DNA of 64,000 nt. It comes from Hormiphora californensis (lineage: Eukaryota; Animalia; Ctenophora). The notes beneath the pieces are model-generated. The model worked only from the letters and a program-made list of their open reading frames with translations, ran no database searches and was not told the origin of the DNA. Shown here in pieces: positions 57,701 to 62,893 of the stretch. A program made the translations under genes and the position numbers. The stretch's first letter is position 1; each line of letters begins with the position of its first letter. The DNA is taken from NCBI GenBank assembly GCA_020137815.1, contig CM035355.1:7750001-7814000 (forward strand). The letters are read 5' to 3'.

Positions 57701-60700
57701 GTCGGACCCCGATTGACCGGGATGATCAGGTTTCCGGTAAATCGGGTCCTGGTAAAAAGGAGTCTGGCTGTACTACGACATAACCTAACCCACTCTCTCT
57801 CCTAACCCACTCTCTCGTACTAACCCACTCCGAACCACGCCACTAAACCATCCTCACTCCTTTTTACATTTTCCACACTACCCTATAATTTCGGAGAGAG
57901 GGGGAGGGCCGGGCCAATTATAAATGCCCCCATTCAGGAGACCGATTGGAGTGCCCCGAGGAAGGGGAGGGAAAAGGGGGGTTAAGGACCCAGAGCGGTA
58001 TGGGAAAATTCCCGAAGTTAGGAAACTGAGGGTCCAAAGACAAAAGGTAGGTAAAAGTATTTTAACCAAAAGTCAGCTAGGGTTTTTAAAACCCTCCTAA
58101 GGGCAAATGAGTTCGGGACCTTTGAAACCCCCCCACAGTACCCCCCCCTTACAAATCCCCAATTAATGGAAACCCAAAAAATTAACCAACCCACAGCAAA
58201 AAATTTTTCCCCTTTGGGCCCCCCCTCCCCCCTCTGACCCCTCCCCCTTCTAGACACAAAAAATTGACCCCCCCCCAATTTAGGACAAAATTTCAAATTG
58301 GGGAGTTAACATTGTGTTTGTATCACAAAGGGGGAATGCTCCATTGGATTTCCAAAACTTTAAACGGTTTTCTCTTGTTGAAAAAGCACCCGTTGCTGTT
58401 GTGGTGGGCCATTGGGTATGGTGGGAAAAGGGTCGACAAAAAACGAAGAACCCAGAGGAACCACACGCAAAAAACCGGTCTCTAACCCCCGCCCCCAATC
58501 CCTCAACCCTCAATATCCGAACAACTCGGGTTGACAGTGGGATAACCGGACCAATAACTTCGGATTGGGGCCAGATTCACAGTACTATTCAAACCCGGGT
58601 GCCAAAGTATGCCCCCTGTATGAGAAAAGATCAGGTATACTTTACTGGGAAGAACTATTTTAGGCATACTTACAAAGGCAAAGAAATCAATACACACATC
58701 AGAACCGTATAGTAGAGTCGATAACTACATCGACCTCTCCCAATTGTTCCAGTTTTTGTCACATCTGTTTGGAGCCTCGACACGACCTCTAAACAGGTGT
58801 TACTTTTTCACAAACTGTTTTCAGCATGGTGTAATCAGCATTTGAAATGTTGCTGATCATAACAAAAAACCAGACTAAATTTTTCGACTTGGGTTAAAAC
58901 CATGGGTGTCAAAAGTTAGCTCTAGGTCTCCTGAGTAACCATCCGGAGACTCTAAGAGATATTTCAAGCCGTTCTCCCGTAATCATTAATCCCGGTGGAG
59001 AAAAAAATACAATGCGGACGTACGTGAGCGCTGGCAGGCTGTTTACATGTTATTGTATGTCTCTCACTCTCTCTGGAAAAACCGCACGTGCGGTTGCGCC
59101 GCGCGAGATAACTCTTTCTCAAGGGGGAGAAAAGAGAGAGACGCACATTAACGTTATACATTAAAGTTGAGGTTGTAGGCAATTGCACGTACGTCCATAC
59201 TCAAATATGTGCTCTACCGGGATTAATGATTACAGGAGAACGGCTTGAAATATCTCTTAGAGTCTCCGGATGGTTACTCAGGGGACCTAGAGCTAACTTT
59301 TGACACCCATGGTTTTACCCCAAGTTGAAAAAATTTAGTCAGGTTTTTGTTATGATCAGCAACATTTCAACTGCTGATTACACCAAGATGAAAACAGTTT
59401 GTGAAAAAGTAACACCTGTTTAGAGGTCGTGTCGAGGCTCCAAACAGATGTGACAAAAACTGGAACAATTGGGAGAGGTCGATGTAGTTATCGACTCTAC
59501 TAGTACACACTAAGGACCCCACACAGCGTCTGCTGCAGCTAAGGGGCCCAACATGAGCAACATGTTGTATTGATCCCCACACAACCAACTCCCTGCAACT
59601 ACAATAACGTGTACTCTAGCTGACCTCACGAATGGTTTAAATCCTCTCCAACTTTCTGTGCGGCCAACTCCTATAGCTCCCATTACCCTCTCATTTCTTT
59701 AGTCAGATTATCTTATCCGCAGCACCCCTCACTTTCCTCTCCCATCAGGAATGGTTTGATAGTATTGACAGAGACACGGTCACCGAAGACAAGGGCGGTT
59801 GCTGTGTCCGTAACGACTTGAATGTGTGCTGGCAGACACAGGCAACCGATTGTACTTCCACATTCGCTACATTCTATGACGACAAGGTAGGTGATATGAA
59901 CTCTCCTTTTCTTTCCCTCTCTCTCTCTCTCTCTCTCTCTCTCTCTCTCTCTCTCTCTCTCCTCTATCTCTCTATCTTCTCTCTCTCTCTCTCTCTCTCT
60001 CTTCTCTCTCTCTCTCTCTTTCTCTTTCTCTTTCTCTCTCTCTCTCCACTACAACAACACTAGGTGTGTGGTCTGGATGAGTCAGGGTGTACCAACACCG
60101 CGTACAGCAACACGACCCTTTGGGAGGGAGCATACTCAACCTGGCCTAACTGCCCCGTAAGTGTTCTGTGGTGATGAAGAATTTATATATTCCGAATTAT
60201 TCATCTGGTACAGATTGCAGAACAATATAATGCAGTCAGCCTAATATTGTAGTGTGGACTGTATTGTTCTGTACTACCCAGATTTACAGTTGAGCAGCCT
60301 TTGGTTGATGTGGTATAGGAACTGTTTTTCTGGTGTACATTAGAAAACTGCACTCTCGGTAAATTACACATTAAAGTTACACATGTCGCTGTGGAGAGAC
60401 ATGCACATTGCACAGAGAGCGTTCGTTAAGACTGTTTCGTTCTTCGCATGCAATATAGTATCCGAGTCTGAGTGAGTGAGATTGAGCGAGATGAGAGTCT
60501 CAGTTGAAGTCTTTGATCTTTGAGTAGAGAATTGTGTGTAAGACATAACACGCAGGACATGTTGTAGTATTTCTAGAAAAGTAATGGGTGTCCAGAATTG
60601 GGTAATCAAAGTGGTGGAAATAATTGCTTTTATCTCTAACCCTAACCCCTCCCATCTAACCCCCTGCTCAGTCCGCCCCTCTAACCCCTGCTCTTCCTAG

Positions 60701-62893
60701 ATTTCAGAAGAAAACAGGGGTAACGCCACCCTACCCACCCTAAAGTGTGAGGTATCAGCCAGACCCTGCTGTGTAGGTCTACAGGGAGAATGCCTGATCA
60801 TATCGCAGGAGGAGTGTGAATTTAGACAAGGATTCTTTCACGAGGAAAATACCCTGTGTAGTCAGGTACATAAAGTTGATATTTCTTGAATATTTTATCG
60901 GGCTCAAATTGTAACCCCGAGAAGCCCAGTAAATTAGTAGGAGGTGCATGTAAATACATTCCTCCTTCTAGCAAGTTTAAAGGATATATCTCGTTGAATA
61001 TATAATTCATGTAAGATCCTGCTTGTCTCATATAAGACCCTCCTCTTCGCACCGGGCCGAAGGTTGCGCGATGTACATTGTACAGTCAGTGTCTGACAAG
61101 ATCCCTGTCCTAGGTGAGTTGTATCACTGAGATCTGTGGACTGTCTGGATTCTTGTTTGACGACATTCCCGATCAGTTCTACCGGGCACTACTACCCACT
61201 TTCATGCACGCAGGAGTTGTCCATCTCCTAATCACGTGAGTCAAAGGAATAGAGCCGAACTAAATAGCGTTGTTAGGGCCGCTAAATAGCGCTATATTTG
61301 GTGATAAGATTCTCAAGCCACATAGACTCGTCATCATGTAGATTGTAGCTCTGGAAACATTTATTGATTTAACTAAGGATCTGCCAAGGGGGATGTATAC
61401 ATTTCCAAACCTCTAAAACTATATCCCTCAGGCTCGTGTTCCAAGCAACGATTCTCCGAGACCAAGAGAAGTTTGCCGGTTGGTGGCGAATTGGATTTAT
61501 CTACATGTGCAGTGGAATTGGAGGAACTATGCTCTCAGCCATTCTCATCCCATACATGCCTGAGGTAAATTAGTTTTGGTGTTTAACCAAATCAGACCAT
61601 TATTTGCTCGACCCTCTACTTCTTTTCTTCAAAAAGGAGGGGGTCTACCGCGACCGCTCATTGTTGGTTTTGGGTGTCATGTATGGAAGGCGCGAACACG
61701 TTTAGCATAGCGTGTGTTGCGCGGCAAATGTATCAAGTTTCGCGCGCGCGGTAATGACCGGTTTCAGTGACAATGTCAGTGACAAATTCAGCTCTGAAAT
61801 GACAGGCAGTAGACAGTAGACAGATCGTGACAATACTTATCAGTGTTCTAGTCCATAGGGGTAAATTAGTACAATTCCTATCGAACACATGTCACAGATT
61901 ATTATTGTGACACCAATTACCAAAAATAGCCTGAACCTACAAAACAACAAAGAAGAATAAGAACTCTACTAAAACTGTCCATGCTGTCTCCAAGAAAAAC
62001 ATTTCAAACTTCCTCCCCTCGTCAGGTCGGTGCGTCTGGTGCTCTATACGGTATCCTAGCCTCCCTTCTCGTTGAAGTGGTTGTCAACTGGAAGATTTAC
62101 AAGAACCCATGTATTGAGTTGACCAAACTGCTCCTCCTCCTAGCCATCCTCTTCCTTGTTGGACTTCTGCCCTGGATTGATAACTTTGCTCACATTGGAG
62201 GGTGAGTTGTAGAAAACAGCGGGTTGGTAATCCCCCGACTCCATCTCTAAATCGCCCATGGGCCATACCCCACCTCATATCTAACCCTAACTAACTCCCT
62301 CCCTCCCTCCCCAGATTTGTGTTTGGATTCCTCACTGCCTTTGTAGTTCTGCCCCACATTAATTATAGTGCCGAGGACAGGATTGCTAAACTAGTCGTCC
62401 AGATAGTCTGTGGAATTCTCGCTGTTGTTCTCTTCGCTCTTCTCTTCATTGTCTTCTATCTTGCCCAGGTAAAATTATACTGGTAAAATATGAAGTAGGT
62501 CAAATGTACATAGTACTACAGTTCCTTAGTTTGAAGAACAATGATTTAGTCAGGAACCGACCGAATCAGGAAATACTGGTCCCTGATTGGCTGATAACCA
62601 GTCACGTGACCTAAATAACGAGTTCTGATTGGTTGTTTACTTGTTTTGGTCGGTTCCTGATTTAGTTAACTGAATTATATATCAGTAGTATGTATTTCCG
62701 CTAATATACAAATGTTACTCTTACTCGACTTGTATGATTGTTGTAGTGCTAATGATCTCCAAATCTAACATGCCCCTCTCTCTTTCCACAGGGAAGTGAG
62801 TGTGAGAACTGCTCATTCCTCAACTGTATCCCTTTCACGGAATCCTTCTGCCAAGATTCCACCATGAATCTGAGACCTCGAGTTGGCAACTAA
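51791..62893 (+). CDS. iRhom (RHBDF)-family rhomboid with intact GASG/His dyad. Exons: 51791-51831 or 54740-54786, 55855-56059, 57257-57395, 57553-57649, ~58510-58634, 59749-59886, 60064-60156, 60701-60865, 61114-61235, 61432-61564, 62026-62201, 62315-62468, 62792-62893
   Basis: RPYFT.W TM1, AKYAPCMR, Cys-rich iRhom homology domain (RPCCVG..GEC.I...EEC.F..GFFHEE.TLCSQV.C...ICGL), PDQFYR, GLLPWIDNFAH, C..LNCIPFT..FC. Exons near 57.3 and 58.5 kb have homopolymer indels in a noisy region. Confidence 0.9.
56655..57280 (+). repeat. ~60-bp minisatellite made of an iRhom acceptor plus exon start
   Basis: Repeats of TATAATTTCAG|TGAGACCGATGTGGGAGATGAC; only the last copy runs on into the exon. Confidence 0.92.
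57029..57200. mobile_element. pogo-like MITE inserted in the minisatellite; a degenerate copy lies at ~57699-57770
   Basis: TA|CAGTCGGACCCC...GGGGTCCGACTG|TA. Confidence 0.9.
58710..59503. mobile_element. Long-TIR MITE (~290-bp arms), TA-flanked, in an iRhom intron
   Basis: AGTAGAGTCGATAACTACATCGACC...GGTCGATGTAGTTATCGACTCTACT. Confidence 0.85.
62551..62659. mobile_element. 109-bp MITE with CAGGAACCGACC TIRs and 7-bp TSD ATTTAGT
   Basis: TIRs and TSD read directly; superfamily (P or hAT) uncertain. Confidence 0.85.

What the first reader, a model, noticed from the sequence alone, without database searches (positions are those of the whole stretch)
59749..62893. iRhom-architecture protein retaining the rhomboid catalytic dyad: a candidate active proto-iRhom
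Seen: clean in-frame exons give ...PYMPE|VGASGALYG... (Ser codon TCT 62035-62037) and IDNFAHIGG (His codon 62191-62193), together with a full Cys-rich iRhom homology domain and the iRhom-type C-terminal Cys motif. Known: iRhoms (RHBDF1/2) are pseudoproteases marked by GPx replacing GxS (human EVGPAGS), while active rhomboids need GxSG plus the TM6 His. Caveat: the TM2 HxxxN asparagine is Thr here (HLLIT). Inference: an early-branching animal keeps the ancestral, possibly proteolytic state, so the iRhom domain would predate loss of catalysis. I cannot confirm this is unreported.
Basis: partly seen in the sequence, partly recalled or inferred. Interest (0 to 1): 0.88.

Follow-up and report, generated by a model that had tools for sequence, protein, structure and literature searches.

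The report
Comb jelly iRhom keeps catalytic residues
This comb-jelly gene is the counterpart of the animal iRhom 'dead proteases', but it keeps the rhomboid catalytic serine and histidine and lacks the proline that disables the other animal iRhoms examined, so it is likely a surviving intermediate that probably acts as an ADAM17 cofactor and may or may not still cut proteins.

Summary
Observation confirmed: eight clean AG/GT exons (59749-62893) give GASG (Ser 62035-37) and the TM6 His (62191-93). The gene starts further upstream, near 54740. It is a ctenophore gene. GASG and His are present in all 10 ctenophore relatives, including spliced transcripts, so this is no assembly artefact. With the catalytic columns removed, trees place ctenophores inside the animal iRhom clade (100/99), sister to proline-bearing iRhoms of sponges, cnidarians and bilaterians (99/98). 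The inference that the IRHD predates loss of catalysis is supported more widely than proposed: choanoflagellates share all 16 IRHD cysteines, and protists and a second anthozoan gene pair a 14-Cys loop with the full catalytic set. Activity is unproven and less likely than not. The oxyanion-hole Asn is Thr/Ser, as in dead iRhoms. Serine retention is no stronger than dead iRhoms' drift allows (P about 0.55). The mapped ADAM17-regulating residues are nearly all conserved. Best reading: a pre-proline iRhom that likely works as a cofactor; chance of real protease activity about 0.3. I found no report of it in the searchable papers, but three key papers were not available.

The parts
54740..54786 (+). 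Predicted first coding exon (ATG)
   Evidence: tblastn of P0002 residues 1-15, 93% identity; GT donor
55039..55080 (+). Predicted exon 2, cytoplasmic N-terminus
   Evidence: AG/GT ends, translation matches the P0002 N-terminus
55855..56059 (+). Exon 3, cytoplasmic N-terminus
   Evidence: tblastn 96% to P0002 and 56% to Mnemiopsis P0003
56258..56379 (+). Exon 4, cytoplasmic N-terminus
   Evidence: tblastn 98% to P0002; RNA contig cover
57257..57395 (+). Exon 5: re-entry loop and pre-TM1 helix; changes frame in the assembly
   Evidence: RNA contigs align here with 3 gaps (X1 record 2, X2 record 9), so assembly indels are inferred
57553..57649 (+). Exon 6: TM1, with the Ile equivalent to human iRhom2 I386
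   Evidence: RNA joint 57392/57550
58490..58634 (+). Exon 7 (start approximate): beginning of the IRHD with its first Cys; garbled by indels in a low-quality stretch
   Evidence: fragmentary tblastn hits in two frames; gapped match to transcript L004; RNA joint 58629/59744
59749..59886 (+). IRHD exon; Asp equivalent to iRhom2 D475 at 59815-59817
60064..60156 (+). IRHD exon with the two Trp (W-x6-W) equivalent to iRhom2 W538/W545
60701..60865 (+). IRHD exon, Cys-rich C-terminal half
   Evidence: RNA joint 60863/61112
61114..61235 (+). End of IRHD, L1 helix and start of TM2; His150-equivalent at 61222-61224; Asn154-equivalent is Thr (codon split by the intron)
   Evidence: RNA joint 61235/61432
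61432..61564 (+). TM2 end and TM3
62026..62201 (+). Catalytic exon, TM4-TM6: Ala 62032-34 (Pro in other animal iRhoms), Ser 62035-37, His 62191-93
   Evidence: Pfam Rhomboid E 1.4e-12
62315..62468 (+). TM6 end and TM7
   Evidence: RNA joints 62200/62314 and 62465/62789
62792..62893 (+). Last exon: luminal C-terminal Cys motif and stop

Best explanation
This is the ctenophore orthologue of the animal iRhoms, carrying the rhomboid Ser-His dyad with Ala where sponge, cnidarian and bilaterian iRhoms have Pro; it likely never acquired that proline, and it likely works mainly as an iRhom-type membrane cofactor (predicted partner ADAM17) with weak or no protease activity. Shown: gene structure, motifs, expression in ctenophores, tree position, predicted iRhom2-like fold of the Mnemiopsis orthologue, and conservation of the ADAM17-regulating residues. 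Inferred order of events: (1) a Cys-rich TM1-TM2 loop was added to an active 7-TM rhomboid well before animals; (2) the oxyanion-hole Asn was lost near the choanoflagellate-animal ancestor; (3) the re-entry loop, D475 and the Trp pair appeared on the animal stem; (4) the Pro was fixed once after ctenophores split off. Inferred mechanism: TM1 binds the ADAM17 transmembrane helix, the IRHD holds its ectodomain and prodomain, and the re-entry loop between TM2 and TM5 relays cytoplasmic signals, as in human iRhom1/2.
For: Orthology: ctenophores plus Pro-bearing animal iRhoms 100/99, Pro-bearing set alone 99/98, choanoflagellate group plus animals 99/95 (35 rows, catalytic columns removed); same shape in 68 rows (quick tree). 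AU rejects ctenophore+choanoflagellate (p=0.0013) and ctenophore+cnidarian+bilaterian without sponges (p=0.0137). Of 242 proteins with a 16-Cys loop and both motifs covered, 233 have Pro; the 9 without are 8 ctenophore proteins and one unnamed GSDP protein. Amphimedon has GPAG. Fold: AlphaFold2 model of P0003, pLDDT 84.8, matches iRhom2 8snl_B at Z 49.9, rmsd 1.9 over 467 residues, from the re-entry loop onward. Cofactor residues (mapped): I386 7 of 7 rows that cover it, D475 8 of 8, W538 and W545 7 of 8 (the miss is the mis-predicted P0002 model); D654 and E705 8 of 8; re-entry loop second Arg 6 of 6 full-length rows, first Arg in register in 4 of 6. Their roles come from PMC11248996, PMC12184519 and PMC8233286. 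Against catalysis: Asn154-equivalent is T/S in 8 of 8 tree rows, as in Pro-bearing iRhoms (0 of 266 have Asn); Asn accompanies the dyad in 19 of 24 and its absence in 1 of 20 non-Pro representatives (related sequences, so the Fisher p overstates); N154A abolishes GlpG.
Against: The residue shown to be sufficient to kill rhomboids, the Pro (PMC3149277), is absent. The TM4 motif reads fully like an active enzyme, including Tyr at the GlpG Y205 position in 8 of 8 ctenophore rows and 0 of 25 Pro-bearing rows. Ala and Ser codons vary only synonymously across the window and four transcripts. I recall, without a call, reports that the Asn is dispensable in some rhomboids. I could not check that ctenophores have ADAM17 (no genome held). 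The N-terminus is short (about 175 aa before TM1) and no PF12595 is listed for the ctenophore proteins. Sponge sampling is one named and two unnamed sequences; no placozoan was identified.
Confidence: 0.55

Rival explanations
1. A bifunctional proto-iRhom: a working intramembrane serine protease that also carries the ADAM17-cofactor surfaces, with Thr/Ser plus His150 and the Ser backbone forming a sufficient oxyanion hole and the re-entry loop gating substrate access.
For: GASG, TM6 His and His150-equivalent are kept in all ctenophore rows, with Tyr at the Y205 position; no Pro, whose introduction alone inactivates Rhomboid-1 and AarA; only synonymous change at Ala and Ser; PMC12184519 describes the TM2-TM5 interface of iRhom2 as left unobstructed by ADAM17.
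Against: The Asn is missing, and dyad-without-Asn is otherwise seen only in 5 choanoflagellate-clade proteins, 3 of which have Pro after the Ser. Zero changes at Ser over the ctenophore tree (length 1.29) has P=0.53-0.58 at the rate seen in 108 dead iRhoms, so conservation does not argue for catalysis. The re-entry loop displaces TM5 by 12 A in iRhom2 and is conserved here.
Confidence: 0.3
2. Reversion: the animal ancestor already had the Pro and ctenophores changed it back to Ala (one base change), so the active-looking motif is secondary in a dead protein.
For: Ctenophores sit on a long stem (0.74), which can be drawn toward the outgroup; Pro arises at this site elsewhere (unnamed choanoflagellate-clade P0224 and P0238), so the site can change; if sponges are the first animal branch, reversion or two gains are needed.
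Against: No loss of Pro among 108 Pro-bearing iRhoms over tree length 44.65 (that set was chosen for having Pro, so read it, where no other 16-Cys animal-type protein lacks it). The outgroups have A, G or S there. The gene tree without the catalytic columns puts ctenophores outside the Pro clade (99/98) and rejects the sponge-first arrangement (p=0.0137). The neighbouring Tyr is also in the outgroup-like state.
Confidence: 0.1
3. Hidden paralogy: this gene is a sister paralogue, and ctenophores have, or have lost, a separate Pro-bearing iRhom.
For: Anthozoans do keep a second IRHD-type gene (Nematostella P0258, Acropora P0260), and choanoflagellates have several paralogues. No ctenophore genome could be searched.
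Against: The anthozoan second gene falls far outside the animal iRhom clade, has Asn and lacks D475 and the Trp pair, whereas the ctenophore gene shares the animal-specific features. No named ctenophore protein with Pro appeared or 52 (lists cut at 120-150 rows, many rows unnamed).
Confidence: 0.05

Closest known systems
Human iRhom1/iRhom2 (RHBDF1/RHBDF2; PDB 8SNL, 9O58, 9Q7Y, 9XY4)
   Same: 16-Cys IRHD, 7-TM rhomboid fold (Z 49.9, rmsd 1.9, about 40% identity for the Mnemiopsis orthologue), re-entry loop, I386, D475, W538/W545, D654, E705, TM6 His, TM2 HxxxS/T without Asn.
   Different: GASG instead of GPAG; Tyr at the Y205 position; much shorter cytoplasmic N-terminus with no PF12595 listed.
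Cnidarian and invertebrate iRhoms with GPSG plus His
   Same: Keep both Ser and His (63 of 266 Pro-bearing proteins) and lack the Asn.
   Different: They carry the inactivating Pro; ctenophores do not.
Active rhomboid proteases (E. coli GlpG, Drosophila Rhomboid-1; plant RBL- and fungal-type 7-TM rhomboids such as P0016, P0011)
   Same: GxSG nucleophile motif, TM6 His, His150, Tyr205, G257 and G261 positions; fold match to GlpG at Z about 15.8, rmsd 2.9, 173 aligned.
   Different: Asn154 replaced by Thr/Ser; large IRHD in place of the short L1 loop; re-entry loop before TM1.
IRHD-bearing rhomboid-like proteins of choanoflagellates, Creolimax, Pterocystis and a second anthozoan gene (database records; no paper on them found)
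   Same: Cys-rich TM1-TM2 loop homologous to the IRHD (16 of 16 Cys columns in the choanoflagellate clade, 14 of 16 outside it), no invariant Pro, C-terminal Cys motif.
   Different: They lack D475, the Trp pair and the re-entry loop. The 14-Cys group often keeps the Asn and the full dyad; the choanoflagellate clade lacks the Asn and is variably degenerate.

Membership tests
iRhom (RHBDF) pseudoproteases | IRHD of about 230 aa with 16 conserved Cys between TM1 and TM2 | tested here: met
   16 Cys in a 208-220 aa loop in 7 of 7 full-length ctenophore proteins; the window has 15 in the clean exons plus one in exon 7
iRhom (RHBDF) pseudoproteases | Seven-TM rhomboid fold | tested here: met
   Model of the Mnemiopsis orthologue, pLDDT 84.8; Z 49.9, rmsd 1.9, 467 aligned to 8snl_B
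iRhom (RHBDF) pseudoproteases | Invariant Pro before the nucleophile position (GPx) | tested here: not met
   Ala in the window and in 10 of 10 ctenophore relatives. Hence filed as the iRhom orthologue and sister group, not as an iRhom by the published definition (PMC3149277)
iRhom (RHBDF) pseudoproteases | Long cytoplasmic N-terminus | tested here: inconclusive
   About 175 aa before TM1 against about 370 in human iRhom2; re-entry loop present; PF12595 not listed
iRhom (RHBDF) pseudoproteases | Phylogenetic grouping with animal iRhoms | tested here: met
   100/99; the alternative grouping with choanoflagellates rejected, p=0.0013
iRhom (RHBDF) pseudoproteases | No proteolytic activity; binds and matures ADAM17 | not testable with these tools
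   Interface residues conserved; no assay and no ctenophore ADAM17 sequence in hand
Active rhomboid proteases (S54) | GxSG with catalytic Ser on TM4, x not Pro | tested here: met
Active rhomboid proteases (S54) | Catalytic His on TM6 | tested here: met
   not discriminating, since 230 of 266 Pro-bearing proteins keep it
Active rhomboid proteases (S54) | TM2 HxxxN oxyanion-hole pair | tested here: not met
   His present, Asn replaced by Thr/Ser in 10 of 10
Active rhomboid proteases (S54) | Ser-His hydrogen-bond geometry and substrate cleavage | not testable with these tools
   Model coordinates are not returned by the tool; no assay

The most novel reading that the evidence does not exclude
Ctenophores keep the last catalytically active iRhom: one protein that both cuts membrane substrates and chaperones ADAM17. 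The single Ala-to-Pro change that turned it into a pseudoenzyme was fixed in the common ancestor of sponges, cnidarians and bilaterians, giving a living enzyme-to-pseudoenzyme intermediate and a shared derived character for ctenophores as sister to all other animals.
Probability: 0.27. Interest if true: 0.88.

Novelty: new variant of a known kind. Interest (0 to 1): 0.62.

Why it matters
iRhoms are a textbook pseudoenzyme family, described as metazoan-only, with a unique IRHD and an invariant inactivating proline (PMC3149277, PMC6451368, PMC8233286). The ctenophore orthologue breaks the invariant-proline rule, and its relatives break the IRHD-only-in-iRhoms rule. Together they give a testable order for how the pseudoenzyme arose: domain gain, Asn loss, cofactor surfaces, then Pro. 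One natural protein lets a lab ask whether cofactor function came before loss of catalysis. The Pro shared by sponges, cnidarians and bilaterians but not ctenophores also fits the ctenophore-sister tree, though one residue in one gene is weak evidence for that.

Tried and rejected
Assembly artefact at the catalytic site: rejected. Pseudogene: rejected; the indels in exons 5 and 7 lie in a low-quality stretch and relatives' transcripts are open. Conservation as proof of catalysis: tested, not informative (P(0 changes) 0.53-0.58 at Ser, 0.73 at His, 0.75 at the following Gly). The Trp-Arg pair after TM2 (Trp in 8 of 8 ctenophore rows, 0 of 25 Pro-bearing rows) is not the L1 WR motif of rhomboids, so I did not use it; the L1 position reads YR, as in iRhoms. 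First structure prediction with 8 sequences failed (pLDDT 37). The careful 68-row tree did not finish; the quick tree is quoted, and a 35-row subset (33 rows dropped for run time) was run to completion. Weak Pfam hits Toxin_7 (E 0.031, Cys-rich exon) and zinc_ribbon_6 (E 0.048, wrong frame) are below cut-off and taken as chance. ESM Atlas gave only iRhom and rhomboid clusters. No genome was held, so the rhomboid repertoire and ADAM17 could not be checked. Earlier-findings look-ups were empty. No complex prediction was run, for lack of a ctenophore ADAM17 sequence. Literature: no paper holds iRhom+ctenophore; rhomboid+Mnemiopsis+protease gave one unrelated paper; iRhom+choanoflagellate gave three that look unrelated by title and abstract; searches showed nothing on this in their listings.
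Full report
Observation. The eight exons between 59749 and 62893 have canonical splice sites and join to 360 codons plus a stop. Ser TCT is at 62035-37 after Ala GCG, and His CAC at 62191-93. TM2 reads HLLIT. The gene continues upstream through seven more exons to an ATG at 54740. Exons 5 and 7 carry indels; RNA contigs align to exon 5 with 3 gaps and join exon 7's end to 59744, so I infer assembly errors there. The catalytic region is clean.

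Identity. A search with the catalytic exon returned 18 proteins. The top ten are 72-100% identical and include Mnemiopsis leidyi and Pleurobrachia bachei (P0002, named; 96% identical to the window gene over 328 columns). The unnamed ones are called ctenophore because they form one clade with these (100). All ten have GASG and the His; of 128 rows, the 114 rows from other animals' iRhoms have Pro. Four spliced transcripts show only synonymous change at the Ala and Ser codons.

Breadth. A profile search of 50%-identity representatives listed the best 150 of 12,746 hits; a further search found the Amphimedon iRhom. Of 378 proteins held, 348 cover both motifs. Of these, 266 have Pro: 76 keep the Ser, 230 the His, 63 have GPSG plus His, and none has the TM2 Asn. 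So the dyad alone is common in presumed-dead iRhoms; the missing Pro is what singles out ctenophores. Among 242 proteins with a 16-Cys loop, only 8 ctenophore proteins and one unnamed GSDP protein lack Pro. Amphimedon has GPAG and two unnamed proteins that group with it have GPGA and GPSG.

Tree. With the x, Ser, Asn and His columns dropped, the 35-row tree gives ctenophores plus Pro-bearing animal iRhoms 100/99, the Pro-bearing set 99/98, and a choanoflagellate-containing clade as their sister 99/95. The 68-row quick tree has the same shape. AU tests reject ctenophores with choanoflagellates (p=0.0013) and a sponge-first arrangement (p=0.0137); the ctenophore stem is long, and the test shares any long-branch pull. 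Four of the ten rows in the choanoflagellate clade are named as choanoflagellates.

Age of the IRHD. All 16 Cys columns are filled in 9-10 of 10 choanoflagellate-clade rows, and 14 of the 16 in 17-25 of 25 outer rows. Outer proteins with the complete set HxxxN, GxS and His include Creolimax P0215, Pterocystis P0213 and P0210, an MMETSP protist P0250, P0207 (label Clim_evm, recalled as Corallochytrium), and a second anthozoan gene, Nematostella P0258 and Acropora P0260. The domain thus predates animals and loss of the dyad. This departs from statements that the IRHD is unique to iRhoms (PMC8233286, passages) and that iRhoms are metazoan-only with an invariant Pro (PMC3149277, passages; PMC6451368, passages).

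Structure and cofactor features. An AlphaFold2 model of the Mnemiopsis orthologue with 119 sequences reached pLDDT 84.8. It matches human iRhom2 at Z 49.9, rmsd 1.9 over 467 residues, and GlpG at Z about 15.8. The window's own protein was not modelled, and dyad distances could not be read. Mapping to iRhom2 shows I386, D475, W538, W545, D654 and E705 conserved and the re-entry loop present, its second Arg in 6 of 6 and its first in register in 4 of 6 full-length rows. L409 and S419, which have minor effects in human cells, are not conserved. D475, the Trp pair and the loop are largely absent outside animals. Their roles in ADAM17 binding, trafficking and activation come from PMC11248996 (sections 9 and 11), PMC12184519 and PMC13277793 (passages) and PMC8233286 (passages). 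Whether ctenophores have ADAM17 was not tested.

Is it active? For: no Pro, whose introduction abolishes Rhomboid-1 and AarA activity; Ser, His, His150 and Tyr205 positions kept. Against: the Asn154 position is Thr/Ser. Among 44 non-Pro representatives (ctenophores excluded), Asn is present in 19 of 24 with an intact dyad and 1 of 20 without; the five with dyad but no Asn all belong to the choanoflagellate-type group (the rows are related, so this is a pattern, not a p-value). N154A abolishes GlpG activity (PMC6400518, passages), although I recall, without a call, that the Asn is dispensable in some rhomboids. At the rate the Ser changes in 108 Pro-bearing iRhoms, zero changes across ctenophores has P=0.53-0.58, so conservation decides nothing. 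I put real protease activity at about 0.3.

Verdict. The gene is the ctenophore orthologue of iRhoms in a likely ancestral, pre-proline state. It works most likely like an iRhom, but fails the published GPx criterion for iRhoms and the HxxxN criterion for canonical active rhomboids, so I file it as neither. No report turned up in ten library searches (listings only unless stated). Lemberg and Freeman 2007 and Kinch and Grishin 2013 were not held, Adrain and Freeman 2012 was not requested, and no supplements were read; these could bear on novelty. PMC12615303, PMC13095730 and PMC6040629 were seen as passages or term counts only and added nothing on this point. New variant of a known kind; interest 0.62.

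Noticed in passing
P0258 (Nematostella XP_032235874.1), P0260 (Acropora XP_029189340.2): A second anthozoan gene annotated 'inactive rhomboid' has the full catalytic set (HxxxN, GSSG or GASG, His) and a shortened Cys-rich IRHD-type loop (14 Cys in Nematostella); probably a mis-annotated active rhomboid outside the iRhom clade.
   Followed up: partly
P0207, P0208, P0210, P0213, P0215, P0221, P0225, P0230, P0231, P0241, P0243, P0250, P0259: A broad eukaryotic group of rhomboids with a 14-Cys IRHD-type loop and complete catalytic motifs (named members: Creolimax, Pterocystis, an MMETSP protist).
   Followed up: partly
P0197, P0217, P0199, P0204, P0224, P0238, P0196: Choanoflagellate-clade proteins show varied decay of the active site (GGSG, GGSP, GASP; His lost in some); two unnamed ones have Pro at the iRhom position independently. 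Capsaspora P0196 has Thr for the Ser.
   Followed up: partly
window 56658-57021: A 55-bp minisatellite (5.8 copies) plus 40-bp copies built from the splice acceptor and first codons of exon 5, just upstream of the real exon.
   Followed up: no
window 58710-59502: Intronic inverted repeat with 317-nt arms, 92% complementary, 159 nt apart; MITE-like.
   Followed up: no
window about 57880-58600: Low-quality stretch rich in homopolymer runs that garbles exon 7; likely an assembly consensus error.
   Followed up: partly
P0002 (Pleurobrachia gene model, 1452 aa): The public model is chimeric, with repeated N-terminal pieces and a mis-predicted IRHD exon.
   Followed up: no
window 61564/62026 intron; P0147, P0188, P0190, P0193, P0194: Several truncated Pro-type iRhom gene calls stop or run off right after the E-V before the catalytic motif, suggesting an intron at the same place as in this gene.
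   Followed up: no
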